DNA of 64,000 bases from positions 102,745-166,744 of the forward strand of contig CAZPCY010000002.1 in assembly GCA_964585295.1 (NCBI GenBank), in the 5' to 3' direction. Shown here in pieces: positions 7,553-21,420 of this stretch (position 1 is its first letter; each line of letters opens with the position of its first letter). The DNA is from an uncultured Candidatus Poseidoniales archaeon (GTDB lineage: Archaea; Thermoplasmatota; Poseidoniia; Poseidoniales; Thalassarchaeaceae). The position numbers and the translations under genes are program-made. Below the pieces are notes generated by a model. That model worked only from the letters and a program-made list of their open reading frames with translations. It was not told the origin of the DNA and did not search any database.

Positions 7553-9694
7553 TCAACCGTCTGGCTCCACCGTCTTAATCTTGTCAATAACATTCCTCAA
7601 TCCTTGCCAAGTGACTACAAACCAATCCCACAATAGTGCTGTTGCACCGAACCTTGCGTATAATGGCCTGAAGTCCGAGTTCCGATCATCACCACCCCTT
7701 GGTAAGGATCTGGTAGCCAAGAGAACGAAAACACCTACGAACCATCCGAAGAACAAAATCGATACCAGCGACCCTAGCATTCCCATCGGGAAGCCAATCG
7801 CTTCCCCCCACTCCCATGGCATGGGGATCATGCCGCCGGTAACATTCGAGATCACGATGAACGCTGCGACGACGACTCCCATCAGCGCCTCTCCTGCTAT
7901 GAGTCCTGCTGCCAATAGAACCCCCCTATCATTCACTTTCGACGCAAGTTTTCTCGCCTCCTCCGTTGGTTCCTTGGAGATAGAACCATCTTTTCGGAGT
8001 CGCGCGGTCCCTGTCACCAAAGCCGCGATTGCTCCACCGATGACAATCGTCGTAGAGAGTTGCATCGGAAGATAGATTCCTATCGCGACTGGCATTACTG
8101 GCAATCCCTTCCAGATGAGGAATGTTGCGATCAGGAATCCCAAAGCGACCATCGGGGTATTCACGGACCCTCCGAAGAATCCCTGGATCAATGCGCCGAT
8201 CAACTCAGCCTGCGGAGCGAGCAAAGCGTGATCGCAGGCCGCCATATTCCCACCAGGTGGATCTGTCATGCAGTGCGTCTTCGTGATTCGAAAGGCATCA
8301 TTCAGGAGCACTACGGTGATTGGTGCGATTACGGCACCTGTGAGGACGCCTGCAACCTCTGCTACCTGTTGCTTCCAAGGAGTCGCCCCGACTAGATAAC
8401 CAGTCTTGAGATCCTGCATGACATCTCCTGCGATCGCGGCGTTGACAGCGACGATAGAGGCGATTAGCAGCGTGGCGTACATCAGGGATCGGGAATCCAA
8501 ACCCAATACGAGGTCTCCGACCAACCAAACTAGAAGGCTGGTAGCCATCAAAGTCGCTATGGTCATGCCTGAAACAGGGGAATTGGATGAACCTACGACT
8601 CCGGCGATGTAGCCGGCTACGGCGCTGAAGAAGAATGCTACACCGGCTAGGAACAAGGTTCCAACTAACGCTAACAGGAAGGAACCTATTCGGACCCAGT
8701 AGAAAGCGAACGTGAGAATCGCTATCACTGCGCAGACGATTAATGTCTTCTTGATATCGATGTCCTGATCCATCCTATCCAACGAATCCGTGGAAGAACC
8801 GGATGAGGCGGACAACGCTTTGGCCAAGCCTACCTTGATCGTTGACCTCAATTCGAATAATGTCCAAACCCCACCCACTACCATCGCACCAACACCTACG
8901 AACCGTATGTGTTCACTCCAGAGCAGCATGAAGGAATCGGTGGCTCCCACGCCAGCAGGCCATCCTTGTATTGATCCGAGCAGTGGGACCAAGACGACGA
9001 ATCCAATGAATCCGCCTAGGAAGATATAGGATGCTATCCTCAGACCGACGATGAATCCTACCGACAACAGTGCTAGTGAGAGATCAAAACCCATGTAGAT
9101 ACGAGTGCCCACGACCTCAACCGCTCCTTCGACATGGGAATGGACAATTCTGAAACCCTTCACTACCCAACCGTACATCGCACCAAGAACTAGGGCATAG
9201 AGAATGGCGATCAATCCTGAGCCGCCGCGTTCTCCAGCCTCTAAAACTTCTCGACAGGCTACACCTTCAGGGTATGGAAGTGGTTCCTCAACAATGAAGA
9301 CACGACGCAATGTAATCGTGAACATCGTGCCTAGGACACCTCCCAAGACCGCGATACAGAACGTTTCAAACAGATCGATTCCCATCCCCATCACCAGAAG
9401 TGCTGGCACAGTGAAGATGACCCCTGCGGCGAGGCTCTCACCAGCTGAAGCCATGGTTTGCACGATGTTGTTCTCCTGAATCGAGACATCCTCAAGACGT
9501 AAAACACCTCGAAGAACTATCATCGATAGCACCGCAGCGGGGATAGAGGCACTCACTGTCATTCCCAGTTGGAGACCTAGATACGTGTTAGCAGCCGTCA
9601 GAAGTGCACCGAGAACTACTCCAACCGCCAAGGCTCGAAGTGTCAATTCGTACGGCCCGTCGCTACGGCCGAACTCGATACGCTCGGTCATCAA
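7553..9694 (-). CDS. OPT family oligopeptide transporter
   Basis: 713 aa polytopic membrane protein with the N-terminal YELTLRALAVGVVLG...NTYLGL signature of the OPT superfamily. Confidence 0.8.
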   Translation of the reverse strand: MMTERIEFGRSDGPYELTLRALAVGVVLGALLTAANTYLGLQLGMTVSASIPAAVLSMIVLRGVLRLEDVSIQENNIVQTMASAGESLAAGVIFTVPALLVMGMGIDLFETFCIAVLGGVLGTMFTITLRRVFIVEEPLPYPEGVACREVLEAGERGGSGLIAILYALVLGAMYGWVVKGFRIVHSHVEGAVEVVGTRIYMGFDLSLALLSVGFIVGLRIASYIFLGGFIGFVVLVPLLGSIQGWPAGVGATDSFMLLWSEHIRFVGVGAMVVGGVWTLFELRSTIKVGLAKALSASSGSSTDSLDRMDQDIDIKKTLIVCAVIAILTFAFYWVRIGSFLLALVGTLFLAGVAFFFSAVAGYIAGVVGSSNSPVSGMTIATLMATSLLVWLVGDLVLGLDSRSLMYATLLIASIVAVNAAIAGDVMQDLKTGYLVGATPWKQQVAEVAGVLTGAVIAPITVVLLNDAFRITKTHCMTDPPGGNMAACDHALLAPQAELIGALIQGFFGGSVNTPMVALGFLIATFLIWKGLPVMPVAIGIYLPMQLSTTIVIGGAIAALVTGTARLRKDGSISKEPTEEARKLASKVNDRGVLLAAGLIAGEALMGVVVAAFIVISNVTGGMIPMPWEWGEAIGFPMGMLGSLVSILFFGWFVGVFVLLATRSLPRGGDDRNSDFRPLYARFGATALLWDWFVVTWQGLRNVIDKIKTVEPDG

Positions 9695-9785
9695 TCAAGC
9701 GAGACACATCTTGGATATGGGTTCTCCGACATAGGAATGCAACCCTGATTGTCAAATAGGGTTCCTCGACTCGCAGGCTGCGTAC

Positions 9786-12749
9786 ATGACTGGGATGCAT
9801 GGCGAGGACCGTGAGTCCTCTGTGGATTGGCACCTGCTAACTGTGGATGATTCCATGTCACGGCTAGATGTTACTAGAGACGGTCTCAGCGAAAGCGAGG
9901 TCGCCCGTCGACTAGTGGAGAACGGCCCGAACAAGTTGGATGAACCAGAACCCATCCACTGGATTTGGAAACTACTGGAACAGTTCAGAGACCCGATGGT
10001 CTACCTCCTACTACTGGCAGCCGCCATTGCATTCGTATTCGATCGGGAGGATATCGGCACCCCCATCTTCATCTGCATCGCATTGTCCTTGAATGCGGTC
10101 TTTGGATATATGCAGGAACAGAAGGCGGAACAGGCGATGGATAGCCTGAAGCAATTGCTGGTCAGTCAATGCGTGGTCGTTCGAGATGGGACTGAGCACC
10201 GCATCAGCACTGAAGGCATCGTCGCAGGTGACATCGTCTGGCTAGAGGAGGGGTTGAATGTACCAGCTGATCTTCGAATCATTGAAGCGAATCGCCTTCG
10301 AATAGACGAATCCTCGCTGACTGGCGAGTCTGCAACGGTATCGAAGTATCCCGATTCACTTTCCGAATCGACCATTCTCGCTGAGAGGAAGAACATGGCC
10401 TACATGGGTACTGTGGTGAGCTCAGGTCGAGGTTCTGGTTTGGTAATCCAAACAGGTATGCAAACCGAACTGGGGAGAATCGCCAAAGGAATCACTGATG
10501 TGGAGGCCCCAAAAACTCCTCTCGAGATCAAACTCGAATCGCTCGGACGTTTTCTTGGATATGTCGCACTTCTGAGCGCTGCATCACTGGTCAGTCTCCA
10601 CGTCCTAGAAGCAATACTGATGGGGAAAACCGGGAACCAATTGTACGAAGTCGTGTCCGACCAATTCCTGATCGCAGTTGCAATCTTCGTCGCTATTGTT
10701 CCTGAGGGGCTACCTATCATCCTAGTAATCACCCTAGCAATTGGAATGCGGAACATGGCCCGCCACCGTGCCATAGTCAGGAAGATGCGCGCGGTTGAGA
10801 CATTGGGTTCAACCACAGTCATCTGCTCCGACAAGACAGGGACCCTTACCACTGGTCAGATGACTGTACGTAGATTCCACTTCGCAGGTGTAGATTACGA
10901 CGTATCCGGGCGTGGTTATGACCCCACATCCGGCAGTCTCATTCTGAAAGGGGAAATCCAAGAGCCGAACGCTCAAAATGGACTTTCTGATTCATCCGAA
11001 TACAAATTGGCGTTGTCTGTAGCCACCCTATGCCAGAACAGCAACGTTAGACAGGTGGATGGTCGCTGGAAAGGAGTCGGTGACCCAACAGACACCGCTT
11101 GTGCGGTATTCGGTTGGAAGTTGCAAGAATCCGTTGATTCATTGCGAGAACGCTGCCCCAGAATTAGAGAATACACCTTCGATCGCGAGCGTAAGAGAAT
11201 GGGGACGGTTCACGAGATTGATGGTGAGAGATGGCTCTTTGTGAAGGGAGCCTATGGTCCAATTAGGGATCTTTCCACAACCATCGCCACCAGTGAGGGA
11301 ACGGTTCCTTTGGACGAGAATCATCTAAGGCTAATTCGGGAAGTCAATACCGGCATGGCCGAATCAGCACTCAGGGTCCTCACACTAGCCGTAAGAAAAT
11401 TGGATGAGGATGAGGATCTCGACGATGTAGAGGCGATTGAATCGAATCTTACTCTCCTCGGCATGATTGGCATCGCGGATCCACCGAGAGCAGAGGTTCC
11501 CGAAGCAATCAGAAGGTGCCAAGGAGCGGGCATCCGGGTCATCATGATAACCGGCGATCAACAGAAAACCGCGGAAGCAATCGGCAAAGAAATCGGTATT
11601 ATGGATGACACCCATAGAAGCATCACTGGGTGGGAACTGGAAGAGATTGACGATGAAGAACTCGAAGAGATAATCGATGAGATCTCGATATTCTCTCGGA
11701 CCACTCCCGAACAGAAGCTCCGAATCGTCGAATGTTTGCAGAGGAGAGGAAATGTTGTCGCCATGACCGGTGATGGCGACAACGATGCACCTGCTTTGTC
11801 TAGGTCCAACATCGGCATATCGATGGGGATTGGAGGCACCGATGTCGCCCGTGATGCTAGTGACATGGTCTTGCAAGACGATGACTTCTCATCCATCGTG
11901 GAGGCGGTAGAAGAGGGGAGGAAGATCTACGAGAACATCCGAAACTTCGTCCGATACCAGATTTCTACTAATGTGGCGGCGGTGACGTTGATTCTGGTTT
12001 CGACATTTATCTTCGGTTGGAAACCTCTGCCCCTGACCGCTACTCAATTGTTGGTGATCAATATCCTGATGGATGGGCCCCCTGCAGTCGCGCTGGGTAT
12101 TGAATCGCAATCAAAGGACGTGATGATGGAGAAACCGAGGCCACTCGACGAAACTCTGCCGACTCCTCCTGATGTACTGCTGATTCTGTTCCTCGGACTG
12201 GTGATGGTCGTAGGTACCGCTTCCGTGTTCTATTTCGCTGGCGGTGGAATCATGGTACAGGATCCTTGCACCGAGTTCGATGGGTCGATAGAACAGGGAT
12301 GGATCGAGCAATACAGCGAGGATGGTACGACTTGCGATGGGGCTGCCGAGGCTGCTTGGAGGTCGGATGCCGAGAATCGATTCGCGATGGCTCAGACGAG
12401 CACCTTCGCAGTGTTCATTCTGTTTCAATTGTTCAATGTCATGAATTGCCGATCCTCTGAGGACAGTGCATTCCGAATCGGACTGCTAAGGAACAACTGG
12501 ATTACAGCATCCTTCTTCATATCGGCCGCTTTCCTCGTCGCCTTGGTGCAAGGAGCCGATATTATCGTACCTCTCATCGGCATAGCCATCGGAGACCTAG
12601 TTGCTACCAGCCCCCTACAATTGAGCGATTGGGGAATCGTGGCAGCGACCGCCACGACAGTGTTCATCGCTGAAGAGATTCGAAAACTGATCTTCAAGTT
12701 GAATCAATCAACTAGAGCGGTGAATTATCAGAAAGACAGTTCTGGGTGA
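9786..12749 (+). CDS. P-type cation-transporting ATPase, Ca2+-ATPase (P2) type
   Basis: LTGES, DKTGTLT, KGAYG, MITGD and TGDGDNDAPAL motifs; 987 aa with an insertion in a late luminal loop. Confidence 0.9.
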   Translation: MTGMHGEDRESSVDWHLLTVDDSMSRLDVTRDGLSESEVARRLVENGPNKLDEPEPIHWIWKLLEQFRDPMVYLLLLAAAIAFVFDREDIGTPIFICIALSLNAVFGYMQEQKAEQAMDSLKQLLVSQCVVVRDGTEHRISTEGIVAGDIVWLEEGLNVPADLRIIEANRLRIDESSLTGESATVSKYPDSLSESTILAERKNMAYMGTVVSSGRGSGLVIQTGMQTELGRIAKGITDVEAPKTPLEIKLESLGRFLGYVALLSAASLVSLHVLEAILMGKTGNQLYEVVSDQFLIAVAIFVAIVPEGLPIILVITLAIGMRNMARHRAIVRKMRAVETLGSTTVICSDKTGTLTTGQMTVRRFHFAGVDYDVSGRGYDPTSGSLILKGEIQEPNAQNGLSDSSEYKLALSVATLCQNSNVRQVDGRWKGVGDPTDTACAVFGWKLQESVDSLRERCPRIREYTFDRERKRMGTVHEIDGERWLFVKGAYGPIRDLSTTIATSEGTVPLDENHLRLIREVNTGMAESALRVLTLAVRKLDEDEDLDDVEAIESNLTLLGMIGIADPPRAEVPEAIRRCQGAGIRVIMITGDQQKTAEAIGKEIGIMDDTHRSITGWELEEIDDEELEEIIDEISIFSRTTPEQKLRIVECLQRRGNVVAMTGDGDNDAPALSRSNIGISMGIGGTDVARDASDMVLQDDDFSSIVEAVEEGRKIYENIRNFVRYQISTNVAAVTLILVSTFIFGWKPLPLTATQLLVINILMDGPPAVALGIESQSKDVMMEKPRPLDETLPTPPDVLLILFLGLVMVVGTASVFYFAGGGIMVQDPCTEFDGSIEQGWIEQYSEDGTTCDGAAEAAWRSDAENRFAMAQTSTFAVFILFQLFNVMNCRSSEDSAFRIGLLRNNWITASFFISAAFLVALVQGADIIVPLIGIAIGDLVATSPLQLSDWGIVAATATTVFIAEEIRKLIFKLNQSTRAVNYQKDSSG

Positions 12750-13964
12750 TTGACCTTGGATGATGTTAGGCGCAATGGTGCGCCCGATTGGAGAGAGAGG
12801 TTGTCCGGAATCACAATCTCGCATCTAATCGACCCCAAACTCAAACTCGCAAAACGAATCATCGAAACCGGGGATTCGATAGATGGTTCCCTTGCTTTGG
12901 GCATCCTCAAGGAAACACCACTGAACGAATTGACTTCACTCGCTCACGCCATCAAGGTAGCACGCTTCGGAAATGAGGTGTTCTTCAATTCCAATCTACA
13001 TGTCAACCCAACCAACATCTGCGTCCTAGCATGCCGATTCTGCGCCTTCCGAAGGGGCCCGAAAGCCTCTGATTCCTATGCCCTGAATGTCGATCAATAC
13101 CTATCGAGAATCACACCCTATGCAGATCGGATTGACGAGGTTCATTCGGTAGGGGGACTGCACCCGGAATGGACCATAGAACACTACGAACAATTGTTAT
13201 TCTCTACGAAATCAACTCACCCACACATCTCGCTGAAATGTCTGACTGCAGTAGAGGTGAAGCATGTCGCTCAGATGTCTTCGTTGTCAATCGAAGAAAC
13301 ACTGAGGAGGCTTATGGCAGCAGGTCTCACCTCTTTGCCTGGTGGGGGTGCAGAGATTCTGGACGATAATATTAGAGCCAGGATCTGCAATGGCAAGGAG
13401 ACCAGTGCGGAATATCTTTCGATACATGAGACGGCGCATCGACTAGGGCTGCCAACCAACTGCACGATGCTTTTCGGAACCATAGAGAGCCACCAGCATC
13501 GAATCTCACACCTCATCGCTCTCAGGGATTTACAGGATCAGACGGGGGGTTTCCAATGCTTCGTTCCATATCCATTCCTCCCCGATCATTCTCGCCTCCC
13601 GGATGCACAACTATCCACGGGGATTGAAACGATTCGGATGATCGCCATCTCACGGTTACTTCTCGATTCGATACCTCACATCAAGGCGTACAGGATGAAC
13701 ATAGGCGACCATCTGGCACAGACTGCCCTATTATCAGGGGCAGATGACATAGATGGTACGGTTGGTCAGGAGGAGATAATGCACGAAGCTGGATCCATAG
13801 CTCCATTGGATCACGATCTAGATGATGTGGCTCGCCTAATTGAGGCTGCAGGATGTATTCCAGTGAGAAGGGACACGACTTACCGAGAATTCTGGATTCA
13901 TCGGCCACAACCGCCCCCTCCAAGAGGATCTGGCGGCCGTCTCCCAGTGGTAGGATCTGCATGA
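12750..13964 (+). CDS. mqnE: Radical SAM enzyme of the futalosine pathway, MqnE (aminodeoxyfutalosine synthase)-like, possibly MqnC
   Basis: CVLACRFCAF (CxxxCxxC) radical-SAM cluster in an NLHVNPTNIC context; TTG start immediately after the ATPase stop. Confidence 0.7.
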   Translation: MTLDDVRRNGAPDWRERLSGITISHLIDPKLKLAKRIIETGDSIDGSLALGILKETPLNELTSLAHAIKVARFGNEVFFNSNLHVNPTNICVLACRFCAFRRGPKASDSYALNVDQYLSRITPYADRIDEVHSVGGLHPEWTIEHYEQLLFSTKSTHPHISLKCLTAVEVKHVAQMSSLSIEETLRRLMAAGLTSLPGGGAEILDDNIRARICNGKETSAEYLSIHETAHRLGLPTNCTMLFGTIESHQHRISHLIALRDLQDQTGGFQCFVPYPFLPDHSRLPDAQLSTGIETIRMIAISRLLLDSIPHIKAYRMNIGDHLAQTALLSGADDIDGTVGQEEIMHEAGSIAPLDHDLDDVARLIEAAGCIPVRRDTTYREFWIHRPQPPPPRGSGGRLPVVGSA

Positions 13965-14761
13965 TGGTCGATGGCAATTGGACCCGCGTGGTCGGAAGGG
14001 TGTCGTTCGCCAACTGTGATCCTCTATTCGATGGCCTGTCGGATGAATGGGGAATTCTTCCTGCCCCTCCAGCCTGGCTAACCTCCCATCTCCTGAACAG
14101 GGATTGTATCGTTGCACCGATTCCGGTGGCTGATCTTTGCGCAAATATGGAGAAACTAGTATCGCTTCGGGGTTTGGGTATTGCTAGTGATGGTCCCGTG
14201 GGTAGTGTAATACTGTTTGGAAATCGTACCATCGAACGCATGAGGGATATCGCGGTTCCAACCGACTCCTCTACCTCAAAGGCACTCATACCATGGTTGT
14301 TATCCTACCGGGGCATAGAACCTCGAATGGTCGAGATGGGGCCGGATCTCCCCACCATGCTGGAGAGATGTGATGGTGCTCTGCTCATAGGTGATCGTGC
14401 ACTCGACGAGGCAAGAAAAAACCCGGAACTAGTAAGGTTGGATCTGGGTCGTTCTTGGACTGAAACGACTGGTACCCCGATGGTCTTCGGAGTTTTCGCT
14501 GCCAGAAGGGACTCGCCGAGGGAGGTCGTGATGCGAATCAGAGACGATTTGTTTTCGAATCTGAGAAGATTCGAAGGCGATGATGAACATAGGAAGAAAG
14601 TCATCAAGAACAGTGCCCAAAGAATAGGATTCCATGAGGAAAGGATGCGCGAATATCTCATCGACGAAGTCAGAAATAGAATCGGTGAAAGAGAGGAGGA
14701 GGGGCTACTTAGGTTTGCATCAGAAGTATGTGGAGTCTCATCTATCGACTGGCTGGATTAA
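13961..14761 (+). CDS. mqnA: Chorismate dehydratase MqnA (futalosine pathway)
   Basis: N-terminus VVGRVSFANCDPLFDGL matches the MqnA RIGxISYLNxxPF signature; periplasmic-binding-protein-like fold family; ATGA overlap with the upstream gene. Confidence 0.7.
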   Translation: MMVDGNWTRVVGRVSFANCDPLFDGLSDEWGILPAPPAWLTSHLLNRDCIVAPIPVADLCANMEKLVSLRGLGIASDGPVGSVILFGNRTIERMRDIAVPTDSSTSKALIPWLLSYRGIEPRMVEMGPDLPTMLERCDGALLIGDRALDEARKNPELVRLDLGRSWTETTGTPMVFGVFAARRDSPREVVMRIRDDLFSNLRRFEGDDEHRKKVIKNSAQRIGFHEERMREYLIDEVRNRIGEREEEGLLRFASEVCGVSSIDWLD

Positions 14762-14762
14762 G

Positions 14763-17345
14763 TCAGTCGTCATTTCTCCTCTTCCTCTTCACAGCCCGAC
14801 GCCTCCCCCCTTTCTTCTCACCTGAATTGGGGCTTGATTCATCGGCGAACATCTTGGATATTGCTTGGTCGATATCCGAGTAATCGGATTCTCCCGCAGA
14901 CTCACTGCTACCTATTTCGACCTCATCATTAGCCGTTTCATCAGGTACTTCCTTGACAACCTGTCGAACCCGTCTCTTCGGAATCGTAGTGACTCCCCTC
15001 TGATCCGGGGGTGGCCTAGGTGGAGCTCTCTGATCTGGAGGTGGCCTCGGTGCTCGGGAAACGCCTTCTTCTTCCTCCCTATCCTCCCCCCAGCTCTCGT
15101 TATCCACTTCATGTTCCTCTGCCCAATTCGCCCACTCATCTTCAACACCAGTGATTGCGATCTGCAGTTCCTCAAGGTCTATGACGCCGTTTCCATCCAC
15201 GTCTAGGTTGAGGACGAGGGCTTCCAATTGCTCCGTAGGAAGGGCCGCAATTCGCAGTGATATCAAACCACTAAGGAGTTCATCGGATTCAAGATATCCA
15301 TTCTGATTGGTATCGAATCGGTTGAACATTTCCTCTACGGTGACATCATTCTCCCTCATCCAACGGAGTAGTTTGTCCATGACCTGATCATATACAAACA
15401 AGGCATCACACTCATCACACATTACGGCGTTGATGTTGTTCAGAGCCCCACAGAATTCACACTCCATGGAATCGAAATCGATTTTGTTCCTACCTCTGAT
15501 CAGCACCATAGAAAGTCCCAAGATTGCTCCGGTAACGAAGAGGGCTGCCCACCAGTATTCGAGAATAATCGATAGCATGGATTCGGAAAACGTTGGGTCT
15601 TCTTCGATGAGTGGTTCAATGGAGAGAATCAGAGGGACTTGGTCGGGACGCAGGGCGTCGCTACTCGCCTGAGGACCGTCTGCGAGAGCGGTTGAATACC
15701 GAATTGGCTGATGTGGCATCGATTCCATTATCGACCCATCCACTGGGCCAGGGAAATTTAGCAGGTGTACATCGAATGGAGGTATGACAATTGCACTCGA
15801 TGAGGCGGTCGTAGTCCAAGTAATACGGATGTGATCCCTATCGTTGTGTGTTACCGTAGTTCCCCTCAATCCAGCCGAAACCTCGCATGTGGAAGTAATC
15901 ACATCGATGAACGTTCCATTCACCCTGACTGATGAACGCCATGCCTCAGTGTGTTCAGAGACATCGTAATCTCCACACAATGCTTCCTCCATCCTCTCCT
16001 CTTCAAAGACATCGACTGCGAAATCACGACTTGAAGGCGTCATAGCCGCCAAACGCCGGATCATCTGACTGTTAGTCAGGTTCAATGTCAGAGTATCCGT
16101 TACAATTACGCTGCCGCTCTCCACAATCACTTGGACCCTCCTGATGGTTTCTGGATCCGGGCTCTTGGTACAGTCATTCGCACCGACGCAGATGTTGTCA
16201 AACCCATCAGGATGCCCATCGCCGTCGTCATCATAATCGTATTCGTCAGGAATTCCATCTCGATCGAAATCCGGGCCGCTTATTGGGGCTGTGGAAGGTC
16301 GCGGTTCCGACCTCAAAACGACTACTATCTCCTTGCCGTTGGATACCGCCAATTCATTGCCATCTGGACTCACATCGCCCTGTCCGAAGGAATGGCCTAG
16401 TGACCTTCCAGACAATTTCTTGAGGGTGGTCAAATCATGGCTCTCGATCGAAGCATCCTCTCGATTAGTGAACACATGTAGCACTCCTTTGCGTTCATTG
16501 GGGAGCAACTGAATCACATGGCCAGAAGTTTCGATGAATCCTAGGTAATCTCCTGCTGGCTGCGATCTAATCTGGATGAGTGCATCGGCTGACCAAATTA
16601 TCTTACTCCCATTGTGAGCAAATGTACAATCAGATAGACCGCTCGTGGTTTCGTATTCAAGCAATATCGACTTGTTGGAGAAATTATAGGTTCGCAAGAA
16701 TCCCTTCTCGCCAGTGGTATGGGAACCAATCATGAGCGTCTCTCCATCTCCACTGATGTCGTGGCAGACAAATGTCTCTCCTGATTGGGGAGCCAAGAAC
16801 CAATCCTTGACGGGCCCCCCATCTGAGTGATTCCATAAGTTGAGGACTCCCGAATCCTCGATTGAGAAGAATGCTGGAGCATTTGGATACACCGTCAACT
16901 GATCCACATCCTGCCCAATCTCCACCGAACTAACCCTCGTCCAGGTTTCCGTGTCTATGATGGATACGGCGGGAGTCGAAGGTATCGACGATCGTTGGCC
17001 AGCAATGAGATACCTATCATCATCCTCGAATTCAATAGATAGCACTGAATCTGTTGGTTCGTCTTGGATGATAACGTAACCGACCTGTTCATCAGTTATG
17101 GTGTCCCATATTGTCACACCATTCTCGTGTCCAACAGCGAGCCATGAACCATCATTGGAGTAGGTAACGGGTGAAGCGAAATCCTTGTCTGATCCTGCAT
17201 CAAGGAAGTGATCGATGCTGTATGTAGGGTCAGCAACTACGACGGAGCTGAACATCGGCAGCATCATCGCAGCCAGCAGCAGCCACGCCCTCAGGCCAGC
17301 CATTGAACTCCTCTGGCATGCCGTATGTATTGAGTATGTGGTCAA
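14763..17345 (-). CDS. Single-pass membrane receptor-like protein: signal peptide, WD40-like beta-propeller, one TSP3-type Ca-binding repeat, TM, cytoplasmic Cys4 zinc ribbon plus EF-hand pair, acidic/proline-repeat/basic tail
   Basis: Signal peptide LLLAAMMLPMFSSVVVA; WD-like repeats (GSWLAVGHENGVTIWD); DRDGIPDEYDYDDDGDGHPDG; TM WWAALFVTGAILGLSMVLI; CEFCG...CDEC; two canonical 12-residue EF loops (DTNQNGYLESDE, DVDGNGVIDLEE). Confidence 0.7.
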   Translation of the reverse strand: MTTYSIHTACQRSSMAGLRAWLLLAAMMLPMFSSVVVADPTYSIDHFLDAGSDKDFASPVTYSNDGSWLAVGHENGVTIWDTITDEQVGYVIIQDEPTDSVLSIEFEDDDRYLIAGQRSSIPSTPAVSIIDTETWTRVSSVEIGQDVDQLTVYPNAPAFFSIEDSGVLNLWNHSDGGPVKDWFLAPQSGETFVCHDISGDGETLMIGSHTTGEKGFLRTYNFSNKSILLEYETTSGLSDCTFAHNGSKIIWSADALIQIRSQPAGDYLGFIETSGHVIQLLPNERKGVLHVFTNREDASIESHDLTTLKKLSGRSLGHSFGQGDVSPDGNELAVSNGKEIVVVLRSEPRPSTAPISGPDFDRDGIPDEYDYDDDGDGHPDGFDNICVGANDCTKSPDPETIRRVQVIVESGSVIVTDTLTLNLTNSQMIRRLAAMTPSSRDFAVDVFEEERMEEALCGDYDVSEHTEAWRSSVRVNGTFIDVITSTCEVSAGLRGTTVTHNDRDHIRITWTTTASSSAIVIPPFDVHLLNFPGPVDGSIMESMPHQPIRYSTALADGPQASSDALRPDQVPLILSIEPLIEEDPTFSESMLSIILEYWWAALFVTGAILGLSMVLIRGRNKIDFDSMECEFCGALNNINAVMCDECDALFVYDQVMDKLLRWMRENDVTVEEMFNRFDTNQNGYLESDELLSGLISLRIAALPTEQLEALVLNLDVDGNGVIDLEELQIAITGVEDEWANWAEEHEVDNESWGEDREEEEGVSRAPRPPPDQRAPPRPPPDQRGVTTIPKRRVRQVVKEVPDETANDEVEIGSSESAGESDYSDIDQAISKMFADESSPNSGEKKGGRRRAVKRKRRNDD

Positions 17346-18724
17346 ATCGAGGGGTCGACATACTCCAAATCAGTTGATTGGACCCATTCTAGCAAATCCA
17401 ATGCGACTTCGCATGATTCGGCAATGACGGTCGATTCATCATCAACGAATCTCTCTAGTGTCGCAATTGCTCGACGATCTCCTATCGCTCCAAGAGCCTC
17501 TGCGGCTTCGTGCCGAACCATGACATCCTCCTGTAGATCCTCTAATCTGTTGATCAGATGATCAACGGCCGAAGGATCCTGCATCTGACCCATTACGTAC
17601 GCGACCTCATGCTTCAACAAAGCGGAAGCGGAGCCAAATGAGGCTGCAAGGGCGTCAACCGCTCCCGTACCACCGATGTTTCGGAGAGCGAAAAGAGACC
17701 GCATTCGCTCAAACATCCTAGCGTTCTCATCACATAGTTTCATCCTCAATTCATCGACCATGTCATTGTCACTCGGGGGTGCCGGATCAACCGAATCGAA
17801 CCTAGACCTAGGTGGTGAAACCGTCTCTCCAACGAACTCGATTCCGTCGACATCGAGATCTGTGGGTACCATTCCTATTCGTTGACCCTCTCTCAGGAAC
17901 AATCTAACCGCGCGACGGCCGTCGGTCCCATAATCCAAAGTCCGAGAATTAACGTACATTCCTACAAATTCAGAATTGGTTTCATCATCGATCCCACGTC
18001 CCCACTGTTTGGCGAAATCAAGTGCATCCTTAGGATGATTCATTGCGTGTTCGATCGATCTTCGTACATGCTCAGTCACCGTATTGATCGCTTCTATTCC
18101 AAGATCTCTTCGAATCACATTTCCTCCAAGTGGAAGAGGAAGCCCCCACCTCTCCATCCACCATTCTCCCAAATCCATAATGAGATGTAGGCGATGCTCT
18201 CTATAGGTCAGTTGACCCTCGTGAATCACTAATCCGATGTCGACATCACCAGCTGATACTGATTCCATTATTCGGTCGAACGGGATGATTACTGTGTCAA
18301 CATCCCCGAATGCGATTCGGAGTGCTAGATGAGCGCTGGTCATCTCACCAGGTATCGCGATTCTAGCGCCCCTAGCCTCCTCGATGCTTAGTTCATCACG
18401 AGCCACAAGCCTAGGTCCATATCCCTCCCCCATCGATGCACCGCAATTCATCAGAACATAACGATCTAAAACTTGGGGCAACGCATGGATACTGACTGCG
18501 GTAACCTCGTGATGTCCTTTGAGAGCAAGGTTGTTTAGAGTCTCGATATCCACCAATTCGTGTTCGTAATCATAGCGCCCTGTGTCTATCGCACCTGTCG
18601 TCAAAGCGTGGAACATGAACGCGTCATCAGGATCAGGAGAATGTCCGATTCGGATGGTCTGCCCATCATCCATGATTGTCACCCAATCAGAACCGGTTGA
18701 AAACGGTGATGACCGAGCACTCAC
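17342..18724 (-). CDS. mqnD: 1,4-dihydroxy-6-naphthoate synthase MqnD fused to a C-terminal HEAT-repeat domain that resembles one lobe of deoxyhypusine hydroxylase
   Basis: N-terminus IRIGHSPDPDDAFMFHAL matches the MqnD SPCPNDTF signature; C-terminus has LKHEVAYVMGQM and VRHEAAEALGAIG His-Glu HEAT motifs; ATGA overlap with the downstream gene. Confidence 0.7.
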   Translation of the reverse strand: MSARSSPFSTGSDWVTIMDDGQTIRIGHSPDPDDAFMFHALTTGAIDTGRYDYEHELVDIETLNNLALKGHHEVTAVSIHALPQVLDRYVLMNCGASMGEGYGPRLVARDELSIEEARGARIAIPGEMTSAHLALRIAFGDVDTVIIPFDRIMESVSAGDVDIGLVIHEGQLTYREHRLHLIMDLGEWWMERWGLPLPLGGNVIRRDLGIEAINTVTEHVRRSIEHAMNHPKDALDFAKQWGRGIDDETNSEFVGMYVNSRTLDYGTDGRRAVRLFLREGQRIGMVPTDLDVDGIEFVGETVSPPRSRFDSVDPAPPSDNDMVDELRMKLCDENARMFERMRSLFALRNIGGTGAVDALAASFGSASALLKHEVAYVMGQMQDPSAVDHLINRLEDLQEDVMVRHEAAEALGAIGDRRAIATLERFVDDESTVIAESCEVALDLLEWVQSTDLEYVDPSI

Positions 18725-18790: not shown

Positions 18791-18985
18791 ATGCCACAGG
18801 CGAATCGACTATCAGTGTCAAGGGGACAATTGGGGCCACTGTGCGATGAGTGTAGCGCCCCGCTTCTTTTTTCGGAGTGTCTCACTCTAGACAAGGAGTA
18901 TGTCTGTCCGGAATGCTATGTCAAGAGGACTGGGATTGAAGGCGCGACCGAGCCCAAATCTGTCGGCGGGCTTCCAATGAATTGA
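18791..18985 (+). CDS. Small Cys4 zinc-ribbon protein (64 aa)
   Basis: CDEC...CPEC motif; located in the priS upstream region. Confidence 0.35.
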   Translation: MPQANRLSVSRGQLGPLCDECSAPLLFSECLTLDKEYVCPECYVKRTGIEGATEPKSVGGLPMN

Positions 18986-19009: not shown

Positions 19010-20251
19010 GTGGCAACGGTTCAAGGCCCCTCTCAACCCCCCACTGAGCCGATGGTCACCGGTTGGGCTCGCTACGCCTTCAGATTTGGTGAGCATTACC
19101 GAAATCGAAACGCTGCTGAATATTGGACCCCCCCACGACTCAGACACCGAGAGTGGATGTTCACCCGTTGGGATGGAAGGCCACCAGAACGGCACAGATC
19201 ATTCAGAACGATGGAACAATTGCATCAGAGGATTGTAACCGACCCACCACACAGTTGCTTCCACAGCACAGCCTACTACACCGATGCTGGCGCGTACAAG
19301 ATGGATGAGAAGGGCTGGCAGGGTGCGGATCTGATCTTTGATCTCGATGGCGACCACTTACCTGGAGTCACCGACCTAGACTTCCCATCGATGCTGGAAC
19401 AGATACAGGAGGAAGCATGGAAACTATGGAATGACTTCCTAGAACCGGATCTTGGATTCAGAGAAGAGAACCTTCAACTAACCTTCTCTGGTCACCGAGG
19501 ATTCCATCTCCACTATAGGGACCCTCATCTCCTCTCTCTCGATCGAGATGCGAGGCGTGAGATCGTCAGCCACATCAGAGGGGAAGGTGTCTCAATCGAC
19601 GCCGTCATGCGAGGTGGATTGCACGGTTGGCGAAGAAGAATCGAATCTGGGATTGAGAATGTGATAGAGAGGCTGGAAGCACTCGCCGGCGGAGACGAAG
19701 ATCAGCGAAAACATCTGAGGTCGTTTATCTCCAAGAGAGCAGCAGCAAGGGATGCAGAGGTGAAGAGGATGTCTAATGCTGAACTCGATGAACTCGCGAG
19801 ACTCTCGACAAACTCTGATTCCAGACGTAGACTTCTGGATTCCAAGTATCGCCGCAACGTCTTCGGCCGACGGCTTAATGACGTCTTCTGGGAACTCGTC
19901 CGAGGCGATGCCAGCGTGATCCTAGGCGGGGCAGGAGAAACTGATGAGGGTGTCACCGTGGATGTGAAGAGAGTAATCAGATGGTTATCGAGCCTGCATG
20001 GAAAGAGCGGACTCGAAGTGACTGAATTCCCGCTGAATAGATTGGACCCTGATGGAACCAATCCATTCGATGCGTTGACTGAGGCCGTACCCTTCCAAGG
20101 AGCGGCCAACGAACGTGTCCGACTATTGCACGATGACATCAGGGCGAGAATCTCCGATGAGACGGTCGAGGGATTTGAAGGAGATGAGTTGGAAACCACT
20201 GAATCAATGGCGATGTTCCTGACTTTGAAAGGGTGGGCGGAACCTCTCTGA
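19010..20251 (+). CDS. priS: DNA primase small (catalytic) subunit PriS
   Basis: GADLIFDLDGDHL catalytic aspartate motif and YHSxAxY-like region typical of archaeo-eukaryotic primase; true start may be the MVTGWA Met at 19052. Confidence 0.85.
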   Translation: MATVQGPSQPPTEPMVTGWARYAFRFGEHYRNRNAAEYWTPPRLRHREWMFTRWDGRPPERHRSFRTMEQLHQRIVTDPPHSCFHSTAYYTDAGAYKMDEKGWQGADLIFDLDGDHLPGVTDLDFPSMLEQIQEEAWKLWNDFLEPDLGFREENLQLTFSGHRGFHLHYRDPHLLSLDRDARREIVSHIRGEGVSIDAVMRGGLHGWRRRIESGIENVIERLEALAGGDEDQRKHLRSFISKRAAARDAEVKRMSNAELDELARLSTNSDSRRRLLDSKYRRNVFGRRLNDVFWELVRGDASVILGGAGETDEGVTVDVKRVIRWLSSLHGKSGLEVTEFPLNRLDPDGTNPFDALTEAVPFQGAANERVRLLHDDIRARISDETVEGFEGDELETTESMAMFLTLKGWAEPL

Positions 20252-21420
20252 TGAGAGTTCAGGATAGACAACAACATCAGCCAATGTTAAAACCGAACCT
20301 AGGGTCAAGGCTAACATCGGTGGAGATGATGTCAGGCGGCTCATCAGACGAGACCTTGCCGCCGCCACCTCCCCCGCCTGGTGCAGGACTCCCTCCACCA
20401 CCAGCCCCACCACCCCCTCAACTAACCCCATCCGAACTGCCACCACCTCCAACTCCTCCTTCTTCAGAACAAGTCATCCCCAGCACCTCAAATGATGGAG
20501 ATAGCCCAGCAATCAACGAGGCCAGTATCTCGGCCGCTACCGGTCCCGAACTAGATTCAGGTGGATCCAATGTAGTCAATCTAAACGCATTAGGAGGACC
20601 CACTTCGGAATCCGCTGTGAACCGAGACCAGATGTACGGGCACATTGACCGCATCGCAACCGGTGAAGTGGGGACCCTACTCGATCGATTCGCAGATCGC
20701 TTCGGAAGCGAGCTCGATCGAGAAATCATTGTCCTTCGACGGAAGGAGCAGCAGGAGGCCAGAACCGCACAGCCGACCGTAGAACTAATTTCTCTGCCTG
20801 ATGACGATGAGCAAGAGGAGGAAGAACCCGACGTCGAAGAAGAAGAGGAGTGGGAGGAAGAGGAGACAGAAGACCTGCCCGAACTCCCACGTGAAGCCGA
20901 GAAGCGCATCGATTCTGAACTAGCTAGGATCTCCAAGCAGATCAAGCCCTTGCAGCAGAAATACAAGCTGGCGAAGCAGCGGCGACAGAACAGCAAGGTC
21001 GCCAAATTGTCCCCTAAGTTGAGGGGGCTGATAGATCGACGGGATTTGCTTTTGGATGTGAAGGAAGGGCGCAAGCACCCCTCTGCACTAGCTAAGAGCA
21101 AGCCTAAGAAGGCGAAGCCAATGGCTTCAGAATCGGAATCCGAGGTAGGAGACGACCTCTTTCCCGATTTCGTCAACATCGTCAATGACCTGCTAGGTGA
21201 CATGCCAGACGAATTCGTCGAGGCATTCATCGCAACGGAAGGGTTCTCTCTCCTCCAATCCGTGGCTGAGGATCCAGAGGAAGCGAGTGATGAACTGCGA
21301 TCTGCATTCTTCCAGATGGCGAACAAGGAACTTGGAGAATTGCCAGAGAATAAACTCGATGCCTTCGTTAAGAGCGAGGGCTTCGCCATCTTCCAGTCAA
21401 TGGGAGAACTCTACGGGTGA
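20233..21420 (+). CDS. Acidic low-complexity protein with a long polyproline tract and a duplicated C-terminal (D/N)xFVxAFIxxEGFxxxQS motif
   Basis: PPPPPPPGAGLPPPPAPPPPQLTPSELPPPPTPP; acidic EEEE blocks; overlaps the priS 3' end and the next gene start. Confidence 0.55.
   Translation: MGGTSLMRVQDRQQHQPMLKPNLGSRLTSVEMMSGGSSDETLPPPPPPPGAGLPPPPAPPPPQLTPSELPPPPTPPSSEQVIPSTSNDGDSPAINEASISAATGPELDSGGSNVVNLNALGGPTSESAVNRDQMYGHIDRIATGEVGTLLDRFADRFGSELDREIIVLRRKEQQEARTAQPTVELISLPDDDEQEEEEPDVEEEEEWEEEETEDLPELPREAEKRIDSELARISKQIKPLQQKYKLAKQRRQNSKVAKLSPKLRGLIDRRDLLLDVKEGRKHPSALAKSKPKKAKPMASESESEVGDDLFPDFVNIVNDLLGDMPDEFVEAFIATEGFSLLQSVAEDPEEASDELRSAFFQMANKELGELPENKLDAFVKSEGFAIFQSMGELYG

What the first reader, a model, noticed from the sequence alone, without database searches (positions are those of the whole stretch)
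17342..18724. MqnD fused to a half deoxyhypusine-hydroxylase-like HEAT domain with two His-Glu motifs
The N-terminal about 290 aa carries the MqnD signature (IGHSPDPDDAFMFHAL). The C-terminal about 125 aa contains LKHEVAYVMGQM and VRHEAAEALGAIGD, followed by ...VIAESCEVALDLLEW. These are two His-Glu HEAT motifs spaced about 33 aa apart, as in one lobe of the di-iron enzyme DOHH (established for DOHH as paired HE motifs in E-Z type HEAT repeats). A single DOHH-like lobe fused to a menaquinone-pathway enzyme is not a described architecture. A homodimer could recreate a di-iron hydroxylase-like site, hinting at an extra oxidative tailoring step or a regulatory metal site.
Basis: partly seen in the sequence, partly recalled or inferred. 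Interest (0 to 1): 0.7.

Follow-up and report, generated by a model that had tools for sequence, protein, structure and literature searches.

The report
MqnD fused to half-size archaeal DOHH
In one uncultured marine archaeon, two neighbouring genes have merged, joining a vitamin-K2 pathway enzyme to a half-length copy of the iron enzyme that eukaryotes use to finish the hypusine modification of a translation factor; the merger looks incidental, but it exposes a half-size version of an enzyme that the literature says archaea lack.

Summary
ORF 17342..18724(-) encodes one continuous protein: an MqnD domain (aa 22-298), a disordered linker of about 20 aa, and a four-HEAT-repeat lobe (aa 320-450).

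The lobe is not a generic PBS-lyase HEAT domain. It aligns to both lobes of human deoxyhypusine hydroxylase (DOHH, 4D4Z) at 45-49% identity (E about 1e-30 each). The equivalents of H56, E57, G63, H89 and E90 are invariant.

The fusion is real. An independent contig (99.85% identical, 18 SNPs) keeps it. A second, distant protein (P0002, 55% identical) is fused at a different junction.

In all other Marine Group II (Poseidoniales) loci examined, mqnD and a standalone half-DOHH of about 159 aa are separate genes. They abut in 78 of 80 species representatives, and 19 of those 78 are in frame. The fusion therefore arose by loss of the stop and start signals inside an existing gene pair.

Best reading: two autonomous modules. 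The half-DOHH probably homodimerises to build the di-iron site and hydroxylates deoxyhypusine on aIF5A. A functional link to menaquinone synthesis is not excluded but is weakly supported.

The more important point is the half-size archaeal DOHH itself. It is annotated automatically by JGI but was absent from the literature I could search.

The parts
17342..18724 (-). Fused mqnD / half-DOHH ORF. It is 460 aa from the GTG at 18724; the probable true start is the ATG at 18673, giving 443 aa.
   Evidence: ORF list. P0001 starts at M18 and unfused MqnD homologues align from there. The same ORF is present in independent contig L007.
17831..18661 (-). MqnD domain (aa 22-298): 1,4-dihydroxy-6-naphthoate synthase-like, periplasmic-binding-protein type II fold.
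   Evidence: PF02621, E 1.9e-69. PDB sequence hits: AF1704 3.4e-69 and the Thermus thermophilus (T. thermophilus) MqnD TTHA1568 2.8e-60. AF2 pLDDT is about 90. Foldseek: 2czl TMt 0.92 and 1zbm TMt 0.94.
17768..17830 (-). Junction and linker (aa 299-319). This is where the mqnD stop and the half-DOHH start lie in relatives. It contains the retained flank motif F309-DSVDPAPP-317.
   Evidence: Protein and DNA alignments with unfused locus L001. L001 reads ...EFIGAE* MTENIPERSEFDSVDPAPPS; the window reads ...EFVGETVSPPRSRFDSVDPAPPS. AF2 pLDDT is below 50 for aa 302-314.
17375..17767 (-). Single DOHH lobe (aa 320-450): eight helices, i.e. four HEAT hairpins.
   Evidence: Matches both lobes of human DOHH 4D4Z at 45% and 49% identity. 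AF2 pLDDT is 86-97 for aa 320-440, with 8 helices. Foldseek hits 4d4z.
17606..17611 (-). His-Glu motif 1 (H372-E373), equivalent to human H56-E57 and H207-E208. G379 (equivalent to G63/G214) follows.
   Evidence: Translation. These are invariant columns H56, E57 and G63 in alignment A3.
17507..17512 (-). His-Glu motif 2 (H405-E406), equivalent to human H89-E90 and H240-E241.
   Evidence: Translation. Columns V87, R88, H89 and E90 are invariant in A3.
13853..14761 (+). MqnA-like gene (VitK2_biosynth), convergent with the fusion gene. The likely start is 13961, giving 266 aa.
   Evidence: PF02621, E 1e-46. It is called as 266 aa in L007 and L001.
12750..13964 (+). Radical-SAM gene with a CofH/MqnC C-terminal region (MqnC or MqnE type), upstream of mqnA.
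   Evidence: PF04055 plus PF19288. Same position in L001-L005 and L007.
14763..17345 (-). Gene of 846-860 aa (beta-propeller/WD40-like plus EF-hand pair), immediately downstream of the fusion gene. It is lineage-specific and sits between the half-DOHH and mqnA.
   Evidence: Pfam EF-hand_7 1.9e-10 and weak beta-propeller hits. Present in L007, absent at this position in L001-L005.

Best explanation
**What it is.** This is a natural fusion of two neighbouring genes in an uncultured Marine Group II (Poseidoniales) archaeon.
- Upstream module: MqnD, the 1,4-dihydroxy-6-naphthoate synthase of the futalosine route to menaquinone.
- Downstream module: a half-size, single-lobe homologue of eukaryotic deoxyhypusine hydroxylase (DOHH), with four HEAT repeats and two His-Glu motifs.

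**How it arose.** In relatives the two genes are separate, co-oriented and tightly abutting. Here the stop/start junction has been lost, which is shown. What remains is a flexible linker of about 20 residues.

**How it most likely works (inferred).**
- The two modules act independently.
- Two half-DOHH lobes pair head-to-head, as the N- and C-lobes do within one human DOHH chain.
- Each lobe donates His372, His405 and Glu406 to one iron. The resulting O2-activating di-iron centre hydroxylates the deoxyhypusine side chain of aIF5A.
- Glu373 and Gly379 take the roles of the human substrate-binding residues Glu57/208 and Gly63/214.
- The fusion merely fixes a 1:1 ratio of the two modules and gives a dimer carrying two MqnD domains.
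For: **Architecture and integrity of the fusion.**
- Continuous ORF with two Pfam domains.
- Independent contig with 18 SNPs keeps the fusion.
- The AF2 model shows two confident domains joined by a low-confidence linker, pTM 0.61.

**Origin from a gene pair.**
- In L001-L005, mqnD (285 aa) ends at nt 6000 and the 159-aa half-DOHH starts at nt 6001, in the same frame.
- In 78 of 80 GTDB Poseidoniales species representatives, mqnD lies directly upstream on the same strand. The gap between the mqnD stop and the first ATG in the half-DOHH frame is -14 to +13 nt in 75 of the 78, and 19 of 78 are in frame. None is fused.
- 44 further metagenome loci are also unfused.

**Two independent fusions.**
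- P0002 has a different junction.
- P0002 does not group with the window protein (0/200 and 7/200 bootstraps).

**DOHH identity of the lobe.**
- E about 1e-30 to each human lobe. The standalone form reaches 1e-36 to the linker plus C-lobe.
- Thirty invariant columns, including H56, E57, G63, H89 and E90. The roles of these residues are given in PMC3306375 and PMC9117371.
- NCBIfam bilin-lyase models score 16-31 bits against cut-offs of 300-600.

**Independence from the mqn genes.**
- L110, L111 and L123 have mqnD convergent with mqnA and no half-DOHH.
- L087 keeps the half-DOHH without mqnD.
- The futalosine pathway in characterised organisms needs no O2-dependent hydroxylase (established knowledge).
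Against: - No activity, metal content or oligomeric state is known for any half-size DOHH. Homodimerisation could not be modelled here, because only monomer prediction was available.
- The half-DOHH is embedded between mqn genes in most MGII, and it fused to MqnD twice. That pattern is also what functional coupling would predict.
- Neither aIF5A nor deoxyhypusine synthase is in the window (no match to the aIF5A loop motif; deoxyhypusine synthase was not searched for), so there is no local link to hypusination.
- Whether MGII aIF5A carries hypusine or only deoxyhypusine is unknown.
Confidence: 0.55

Rival explanations
1. **Functional coupling to menaquinone synthesis.** The half-DOHH dimer works with MqnD. 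It could hydroxylate a naphthoate or naphthoquinone intermediate. Alternatively it could use the naphthoquinol product of MqnD (a two-electron donor) to re-reduce its di-iron centre. On this reading the conserved gene pair and the fusions reflect a physical or metabolic partnership.
For: - mqnD is followed by the half-DOHH in 78 of 80 GTDB MGII species, and the half-DOHH sits between mqnD and mqnA/radical-SAM genes.
- Two apparently independent fusions exist.
- The physiological reductant of DOHH is not established, and di-iron quinol-using enzymes exist (own knowledge: Coq7, alternative oxidase).
Against: - The whole block is syntenic in MGII and mixes unrelated functions (priS, a 64-aa gene, mqnD, half-DOHH, mqnA, radical SAM, transketolase), so adjacency is weak evidence.
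- In-frame abutting genes make fusion mutationally cheap.
- mqnD-mqnA loci without the half-DOHH exist, and so does a half-DOHH locus without mqnD.
- The AF2 model gives no confident interdomain packing.
- The lobe is 45-49% identical to eukaryotic DOHH, including the deoxyhypusine-binding residues.
- The futalosine pathway is complete without a hydroxylase in characterised organisms (own knowledge).
Confidence: 0.15
2. **A di-iron hydroxylase acting on something else.** The half-DOHH is a working di-iron hydroxylase, but its substrate is not aIF5A-deoxyhypusine. It could be another aminobutyl- or polyamine-modified protein, or a small molecule.
For: - Metal ligands are conserved.
- A symmetric homodimer would present a different surface from the asymmetric two-lobed eukaryotic enzyme.
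- The literature reports that no DOHH orthologue had been found in archaea, and that some archaea stop at deoxyhypusine.
Against: - The residues assigned to binding the deoxyhypusine side chain (E57, E90, G63 equivalents) are invariant.
- The identity level is typical of orthologues.
- All archaea have DHS and aIF5A (PMC5178350).
Confidence: 0.15
3. **A non-catalytic HEAT module.** The lobe acts as a scaffold, a metal sensor or a protein-binding domain, like generic PBS-lyase or alphaRep-type HEAT proteins.
For: - Pfam labels it only as HEAT_PBS/HEAT_2.
- Designed alphaRep proteins also score well in total.
Against: - Per-lobe scores to DOHH (109 and 107 bits over 128 aa) far exceed those to natural HEAT_PBS proteins (CpcE 4e-5, MTH187 5e-5).
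- The His-Glu pairs and about 30 other positions are invariant between MGII and human lobes.
Confidence: 0.08
4. **An artefact.** An assembly or sequencing error falsely joins two separate genes.
For: - Relatives have two genes.
- P0002 comes from a contig with 3x coverage.
Against: - The same fused frame is in an independently assembled contig that differs by 18 SNPs.
- The junction differs from unfused relatives by an in-frame change of about 12 nt, not a single base.
- P0002 lacks about 20 junction codons, which an error cannot produce.
Confidence: 0.02

Closest known systems
Eukaryotic deoxyhypusine hydroxylase (DOHH / Lia1; human structure 4D4Z)
   Same: - E-Z type HEAT hairpins.
- 45% identity to the human N-lobe and 49% to the C-lobe.
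- His-Glu motifs 33 residues apart at the same positions.
- G63 equivalent conserved.
- The (F/Y)xSVDPAPP motif that precedes the eukaryotic C-lobe is present, as is a C-terminal ...Y(S/A)(D/E) tail.
   Different: - Only one four-repeat lobe per chain (about 159 aa standalone) instead of two lobes in about 300 aa. A di-iron site therefore needs a homodimer.
- Found in archaea.
- Here fused behind MqnD.
- Activity is untested.
MqnD, 1,4-dihydroxy-6-naphthoate synthase (T. thermophilus TTHA1568, 2CZL/3A3U; A. fulgidus AF1704, 1ZBM)
   Same: - 41-43% identity and the same fold (TM 0.92-0.94, rmsd 1.6-1.7 A).
- Conserved GHSPDPDD and IHEGQ segments.
- Neighbours are mqnA-like and radical-SAM mqn genes.
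   Different: Carries a C-terminal half-DOHH lobe. Characterised MqnD proteins are single-domain, and so were all but two of the 120 best-scoring homologues.
Standalone half-DOHH of Marine Group II archaea (e.g. P0162, P0161, P0221; named 'deoxyhypusine monooxygenase' by JGI and 'HEAT repeat domain-containing protein' by NCBI)
   Same: - 70-75% identical to the window's C-terminal module.
- Same genomic position downstream of mqnD.
   Different: A separate gene with its own start codon. In the window the start codon and the preceding stop are gone.
PBS-lyase HEAT proteins (CpcE, NblB) and designed alphaRep proteins
   Same: Same repeat type (PF03130).
   Different: - Scores are far below family cut-offs (31 against 300 bits for NblB).
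- No conserved His-Glu pairs at both positions.

Membership tests
DOHH (deoxyhypusine hydroxylase, EC 1.14.99.29) | Alpha-helical HEAT-hairpin fold of the E-Z/PBS type | tested here: met
   - PF03130/PF13646.
- AF2 model: 8 helices, pLDDT 86-97 for aa 320-440.
- Foldseek hit to 4d4z.
DOHH (deoxyhypusine hydroxylase, EC 1.14.99.29) | Eight HEAT repeats in one chain, arranged as two symmetrical four-repeat lobes | tested here: not met
   - There is one lobe only (aa 320-450).
- The single query segment aligns to both human lobes.
- There is no second copy in the window.
DOHH (deoxyhypusine hydroxylase, EC 1.14.99.29) | His-Glu motifs at the positions of H56-E57 and H89-E90 (or H207-E208 and H240-E241), which supply the iron ligands | tested here: met
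   - H372-E373 and H405-E406 align to them and are invariant in MGII and human lobes.
- There are two per chain, not four.
- Residue roles are from PMC3306375 and PMC9117371.
DOHH (deoxyhypusine hydroxylase, EC 1.14.99.29) | Substrate-binding residues (Glu57/208, Glu90/241, Gly63/214) | tested here: met
   The E57, E90 and G63 equivalents are invariant. The residue list is from PMC9117371.
DOHH (deoxyhypusine hydroxylase, EC 1.14.99.29) | Sequence similarity that is specific to DOHH rather than to generic HEAT_PBS proteins | tested here: met
   - 1.5e-30 and 8.8e-30 per lobe, against 4e-5 for CpcE.
- In the 1.8-billion-representative search the non-repetitive top hits are two-lobed proteins of about 300 aa. 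Those with source names are eukaryotic DOHH.
DOHH (deoxyhypusine hydroxylase, EC 1.14.99.29) | Di-iron centre and hydroxylation of deoxyhypusine on (a/e)IF5A. For a half-size protein this also requires homodimerisation. | not testable with these tools
   Needs biochemistry or multimer modelling. Only a monomer prediction could be run.
MqnD (futalosine pathway, 1,4-dihydroxy-6-naphthoate synthase) | PF02621 domain with the periplasmic-binding-protein type II fold | tested here: met
   E 1.9e-69. TM 0.92-0.94 to 2czl and 1zbm.
MqnD (futalosine pathway, 1,4-dihydroxy-6-naphthoate synthase) | Closer to validated MqnD than to the paralogue MqnA | tested here: met
   - 41% identity to TTHA1568 MqnD, against 17-20% identity and TMt 0.66-0.78 to MqnA structures (6o9a, 2nxo, 2i6e).
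- A separate MqnA-like gene lies at 13853..14761.
MqnD (futalosine pathway, 1,4-dihydroxy-6-naphthoate synthase) | Genomic association with other mqn genes | tested here: met
   An mqnA-like gene and a radical-SAM CofH_C gene are adjacent. The same cluster is seen in relatives.
MqnD (futalosine pathway, 1,4-dihydroxy-6-naphthoate synthase) | Conversion of cyclic dehypoxanthinyl futalosine to 1,4-dihydroxy-6-naphthoate | not testable with these tools
   Needs an enzyme assay.
Phycobilin lyase / NblB HEAT proteins | Score above the family cut-off of the NCBIfam equivalog models | tested here: not met
   NblB 31.5 bits against 300, CpcE 27 against 330, CpeY 16.4 against 600.

The most novel reading that the evidence does not exclude
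The tight mqnD / half-DOHH pairing across Marine Group II, and its two independent fusions, reflect real coupling. On this reading the half-size DOHH homodimer is the long-missing archaeal deoxyhypusine hydroxylase and resembles the form that existed before the eukaryotic two-lobed enzyme arose by duplication. Its di-iron centre would take its two reducing equivalents from the naphthoquinol made or bound by MqnD, tying hypusination of aIF5A to the oxygen and quinone state of the cell.
Probability: 0.1. Interest if true: 0.9.

Novelty: new variant of a known kind. Interest (0 to 1): 0.66.

Why it matters
[quoted passage not shown] Some archaea nevertheless contain hypusine.

**What this finding leads to.** It points to a clear DOHH homologue in Marine Group II archaea, found at 400 sites among GTDB species-representative genomes (only the 80 best, all MGII-type, were inspected).
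- It is half the size of the eukaryotic enzyme.
- It is closer to each human lobe (44.5% and 49.2%) than those lobes are to each other (40.3%).

**What becomes testable.**
- Whether a homodimer of one lobe can form the unusually stable peroxo-diiron centre.
- Whether MGII aIF5A is fully hypusinated.
- Whether the two-lobed eukaryotic enzyme arose by tandem duplication of such a gene, or whether MGII acquired and halved a eukaryotic gene.

**The fusion itself.** It is probably incidental. It does provide a natural single-chain construct, and a caution that Rosetta-stone inference from abutting in-frame genes is weak.

Tried and rejected
1. **Generic HEAT/PBS-lyase reading.** Rejected by per-lobe scores, invariant residues and NCBIfam cut-offs.
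2. **Assembly or frameshift artefact.** Rejected by the independent contig and the junction structure.
3. **Single ancestral fusion shared by the window and P0002.** Not supported. The junctions differ, and the two never group for MqnD (0/200) and rarely for the DOHH part (7/200).
4. **Placing the MGII lobe relative to eukaryotic N- and C-lobes.**
   - The first script timed out.
   - My own neighbour-joining (NJ) run gave three separate clades on the full data. Bootstraps for N and C monophyly were only 21 and 15 of 200, so the placement is unresolved.
   - The eukaryotic set was the top hits to the query, and so is biased towards similarity to it.
5. **Hypusine machinery in the window.** No match to the aIF5A loop motif. 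Deoxyhypusine synthase was not searched for.
6. **More fused alleles.** A degenerate junction pattern found nothing in metagenome contigs. A protein-based scan gave 44 unfused pairs and no fusion.
7. **Phage collection.** No half-DOHH.
8. **A compact 263-aa two-lobed cluster (P0353).** I suspected it was prokaryotic. Its contig looks eukaryotic, with Transposase_21, GST and sparse genes.
9. **AFDB fold search.** Unavailable.
10. **Papers not held.** Park et al. 2006 and Park & Wolff 2018.
11. **Literature searches.** Six searches found no paper that pairs DOHH with MGII, Asgard, Thermoplasmatota or Euryarchaeota terms, or futalosine with MGII.
12. **Half-size DOHH outside MGII.** This could not be determined, because the result lists are capped and filled by MGII or two-lobed eukaryotic proteins.

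Full report
**1.

The minus-strand ORF 17342..18724 is a single open frame of 460 codons. Homologues and the near-identical database protein P0001 start at Met18, so the real gene is probably 17342..18673, giving 443 aa.

Pfam finds VitK2_biosynth (PF02621) at aa 24-279 (E 1.9e-69). It finds HEAT_PBS/HEAT_2 at aa 359-442.

The two His-Glu motifs are H372-E373 and H405-E406, 33 residues apart.

An AlphaFold2 model (mean pLDDT 86, pTM 0.61) shows three parts:
- a confident alpha/beta domain at aa 22-298;
- a low-confidence linker at aa 302-314;
- a confident eight-helix domain (four hairpins) at aa 320-450.

Foldseek matches the first domain to MqnD of Thermus thermophilus (2CZL, TM 0.92, rmsd 1.7 A, 41% identity) and to AF1704 (1ZBM, TM 0.94). 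It matches the last domain to human DOHH 4D4Z.

**2. The C-terminal domain is specifically one DOHH lobe**

Against all PDB sequences, the last 144 residues hit human deoxyhypusine hydroxylase at E 1.3e-63. They align separately to its N-lobe (chain residues 12-139, 1.5e-30) and to its C-lobe (159-286, 8.8e-30).

Natural HEAT_PBS proteins score about 4e-5. NCBIfam bilin-lyase models reach 16-31 bits against cut-offs of 300-600.

I aligned the window lobe, the second fused protein, five standalone archaeal homologues and both human lobes. Thirty columns are invariant. They include:
- H56, H89 and E90, which are the iron ligands;
- E57 and G63, which bind the deoxyhypusine side chain.

The residue roles come from PMC3306375 and PMC9117371.

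**3. The fusion is real, rare and derived from a gene pair**

*Real.*
- Contig L007 (JGI metagenome 3300007515) aligns to the window over 11,594 bp at 99.845% identity, with 18 mismatches and no gaps.
- It carries the same fused ORF.

*Rare.* A search of 5.8 billion proteins with the whole protein found only two clusters with both domains:
- P0001, which is the window's own lineage;
- P0002, which is 425 aa and 55% identical.

The other proteins among the 120 best-scoring hits listed are single-domain MqnD proteins of 282-345 aa from Marine Group II (MGII, Poseidoniales/Thalassarchaeaceae) archaea.

*The lobe is normally standalone.* Searching with the lobe alone found standalone proteins of about 159 aa, 70-75% identical, in the same archaea: the 120 best of 2,811 hits are nearly all of this kind. 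JGI names some 'deoxyhypusine monooxygenase'; NCBI names them 'HEAT repeat domain-containing protein'.

*The two genes are neighbours.*
- On five contigs carrying the standalone gene, mqnD ends at nt 6000 and the half-DOHH starts at nt 6001 in the same frame (...GAA TAA ATG...).
- In 80 GTDB species representatives, all with MGII-type titles, 78 have mqnD directly upstream on the same strand.
- The gap from the mqnD stop to the first ATG in the half-DOHH frame lies between -14 and +13 nt in 75 of the 78; the three larger overlaps (L033, L038, L068) probably reflect my start-codon rule.
- 19 of 78 are in frame, and none is fused.
- A metagenome scan added 44 unfused pairs and no fusion.

*The junctions.*

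| Locus | Junction sequence |
|---|---|
| L001 (unfused) | ...EFIGAE* MTENIPERSEFDSVDPAPPS |
| Window (fused) | ...EFVGETVSPPRSRFDSVDPAPPS |
| P0002 (fused) | about 20 junction residues missing |

In the window the stop and start have been replaced in frame.

*Probably two independent fusions.*
- The window and P0002 proteins are each closer to unfused sequences than to each other.
- They never group in bootstrapped NJ trees for the MqnD part (0/200).
- They rarely group for the DOHH part (7/200).

**4. Genomic setting**

The conserved MGII block is priS <- 64-aa gene <- | mqnD -> half-DOHH -> | <- mqnA-like <- radical-SAM (CofH_C type), followed by split transketolase genes.

The window has the same order. 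It also has an extra gene of 846-860 aa (beta-propeller plus EF-hand) between the fusion gene and mqnA.

The block mixes unrelated functions and is syntenic as a whole. Adjacency alone is therefore weak evidence for a shared pathway. The two genes are also separable:
- L110, L111 and L123 have mqnD directly convergent with mqnA, with no half-DOHH.
- L112 keeps only a 20-residue remnant of the half-DOHH.
- L087 has the half-DOHH next to mqnA without mqnD.

**5. How it most likely works**

*Shown:*
- two intact modules joined by a disordered linker;
- all DOHH lobe residues known to matter are conserved;
- both fused proteins retain the whole lobe, including its N-flank motif.

*Inferred:*
- In human DOHH each lobe supplies two His and one Glu to one iron, and the lobes are related by a dyad. 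A single lobe can therefore form a di-iron site only as a homodimer.
- I propose that the half-DOHH, free or fused, does so and hydroxylates deoxyhypusine on aIF5A. DHS and aIF5A are present in all archaea (PMC5178350).
- MqnD continues to act in the futalosine pathway.
- The fusion enforces 1:1 stoichiometry and yields a dimer carrying two MqnD domains. I consider it most likely neutral.

My confidence in this whole package is about 0.55. The architecture and origin are near certain; the enzymatic assignment is the uncertain part.

**6. Rivals**

- *Coupling to menaquinone chemistry* (about 0.15). This would be hydroxylation of an intermediate, or use of the naphthoquinol product as reductant for the di-iron centre. 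The pairing and the repeated fusion suggest it. The separable loci, the lack of any modelled interdomain contact, and the very DOHH-like active-site residues speak against it.
- *A different hydroxylase substrate* (about 0.15).
- *A non-catalytic HEAT module* (about 0.08).
- *An artefact* (about 0.02).

**7. Relation to what is known**

The family relationship is clear, but one defining feature of DOHH is tested and not met: eight repeats and four His-Glu motifs in one chain. I therefore file the lobe as a half-size variant of DOHH, not as a standard member.

In the 1.8-billion-representative search, the non-repetitive top hits are two-lobed proteins of about 300 aa. Those with source names are eukaryotic. 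The only single-lobe clusters in the top 150 are the two MGII ones.

*Lobe identities.*

| Comparison | Identity |
|---|---|
| Window lobe vs human N-lobe | 44.5% |
| Window lobe vs human C-lobe | 49.2% |
| Human N-lobe vs human C-lobe | 40.3% |
| MGII vs 84 eukaryotic N-lobes (mean) | 44.5% |
| MGII vs 84 eukaryotic C-lobes (mean) | 46.8% |
| Eukaryotic N-lobes vs C-lobes (mean) | 38.7% |

The eukaryotic set was the top hits to the query, so it is biased towards similarity to it.

*Flanks.*
- The MGII protein starts with (F/Y)xSVDPAPP.
- That motif sits in the inter-lobe linker of 68 of 97 eukaryotic representatives and never before the N-lobe.
- By its boundaries, the MGII protein therefore looks like 'linker + C-lobe + C-tail'.

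*Phylogeny.* NJ trees give three separate clades (MGII, N-lobes, C-lobes) on the full data, but with weak bootstraps. The data cannot decide between two scenarios:
- a relic from before the duplication;
- an ancient transfer of a eukaryotic gene that was then halved.

No sign of a recent transfer from a crown eukaryote was seen.

**8. Literature**

- PMC5178350 (2016) states that no DOHH orthologue had been identified in any archaeal genome.
- PMC8153317 (2021) says a DOHH orthologue has not been found in archaea.

Six full-text searches found no paper that mentions DOHH together with MGII, Asgard, Thermoplasmatota or Euryarchaeota terms, and none that mentions futalosine with MGII.

The library is limited to open-access papers and bioRxiv, so prior description elsewhere cannot be excluded. 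The JGI pipeline already attaches the DOHH name to the standalone gene.

**9. Verdict**

The finding is real. As a fusion it is a lineage-specific variant that probably has no special mechanism.

Its value is that it points to a widespread, undiscussed half-size archaeal DOHH homologue. That makes the question of the 'missing archaeal DOHH', and the origin of the two-lobed enzyme, directly testable.

Novelty: new variant of a known kind. Interest: 0.66.

Noticed in passing
L001:6001-6480 and 78 of the loci L008-L087; also P0121-P0240: A standalone half-size DOHH homologue of about 159 aa occurs across Marine Group II archaea. 400 stretches were confirmed among GTDB species-representative genomes; only the 80 best, all MGII-type, were inspected. 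Published papers state that archaea have no DOHH orthologue. JGI already labels it 'deoxyhypusine monooxygenase'.
   Followed up: yes
window 17776-17802 (aa 309-317, FDSVDPAPP); L001:6028-6057: The N-flank motif (F/Y)xSVDPAPP of the archaeal half-DOHH is the same motif found in the inter-lobe linker of 68 of 97 eukaryotic DOHH representatives. It is never found before their N-lobe. Its role is unknown.
   Followed up: partly
window 14763-17345 (-): A gene of 846-860 aa is inserted between the fusion gene and mqnA. It has a signal-like N-terminus, WD40/beta-propeller-like repeats, an EF-hand pair and an acidic, Pro-rich tail. It is present in L007 but absent at this position in other MGII loci (L001-L005). 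A smaller EF-hand protein lies near priS in L087.
   Followed up: partly
L110:1483-3169, L111, L123; L112:2383-2442; L087:3508-4784: The mqnD / half-DOHH pair is not universal. Three metagenome loci have mqnD convergent with mqnA and no half-DOHH. One locus keeps only a 20-residue remnant. One GTDB genome has the half-DOHH next to mqnA without mqnD or the radical-SAM gene.
   Followed up: partly
window 18673 vs 18724: The mechanical ORF starts at a GTG 17 codons upstream of the ATG that homologues and the JGI gene call use. The first 19 residues have pLDDT below 50. The true start is probably 18673.
   Followed up: yes
P0016, P0013, P0088 (MqnD of 336-345 aa): A large group of MGII MqnD proteins is called with an N-terminal extension of about 60 residues that is not shared by the 285-aa forms. 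This may be a mis-called start or a real extension.
   Followed up: no
window 18791-18985 (+): A conserved 64-aa ORF with two CxxC pairs (zinc-ribbon-like) lies between priS and mqnD, divergent from the fusion gene. It is present at the same position in L001-L005.
   Followed up: no
window 20233-22220 (+): Two ORFs downstream of priS are low-complexity. One (395 aa) is Pro-rich then highly acidic. The other (267 aa) has a Lys-rich N-terminus and predicted membrane helices. In relatives the corresponding genes have no Pfam hit.
   Followed up: no
window 7553-12749: An OPT-family oligopeptide transporter (7553..9694, -) and a P-type cation ATPase (9786..12749, +) lie upstream of the mqn genes.
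   Followed up: partly
window 13816-14151 (-): There is a weak tblastn match of the DOHH lobe (27% identity, E 7e-4 within the window) antisense to the radical-SAM/mqnA junction. It is probably spurious.
   Followed up: no
L012 and L041 (MAG UBA105); L047 and L086 (MAG SAT218): Two MAGs each contain two different mqnD / half-DOHH loci. This suggests mixed populations in the bins rather than paralogues.
   Followed up: no
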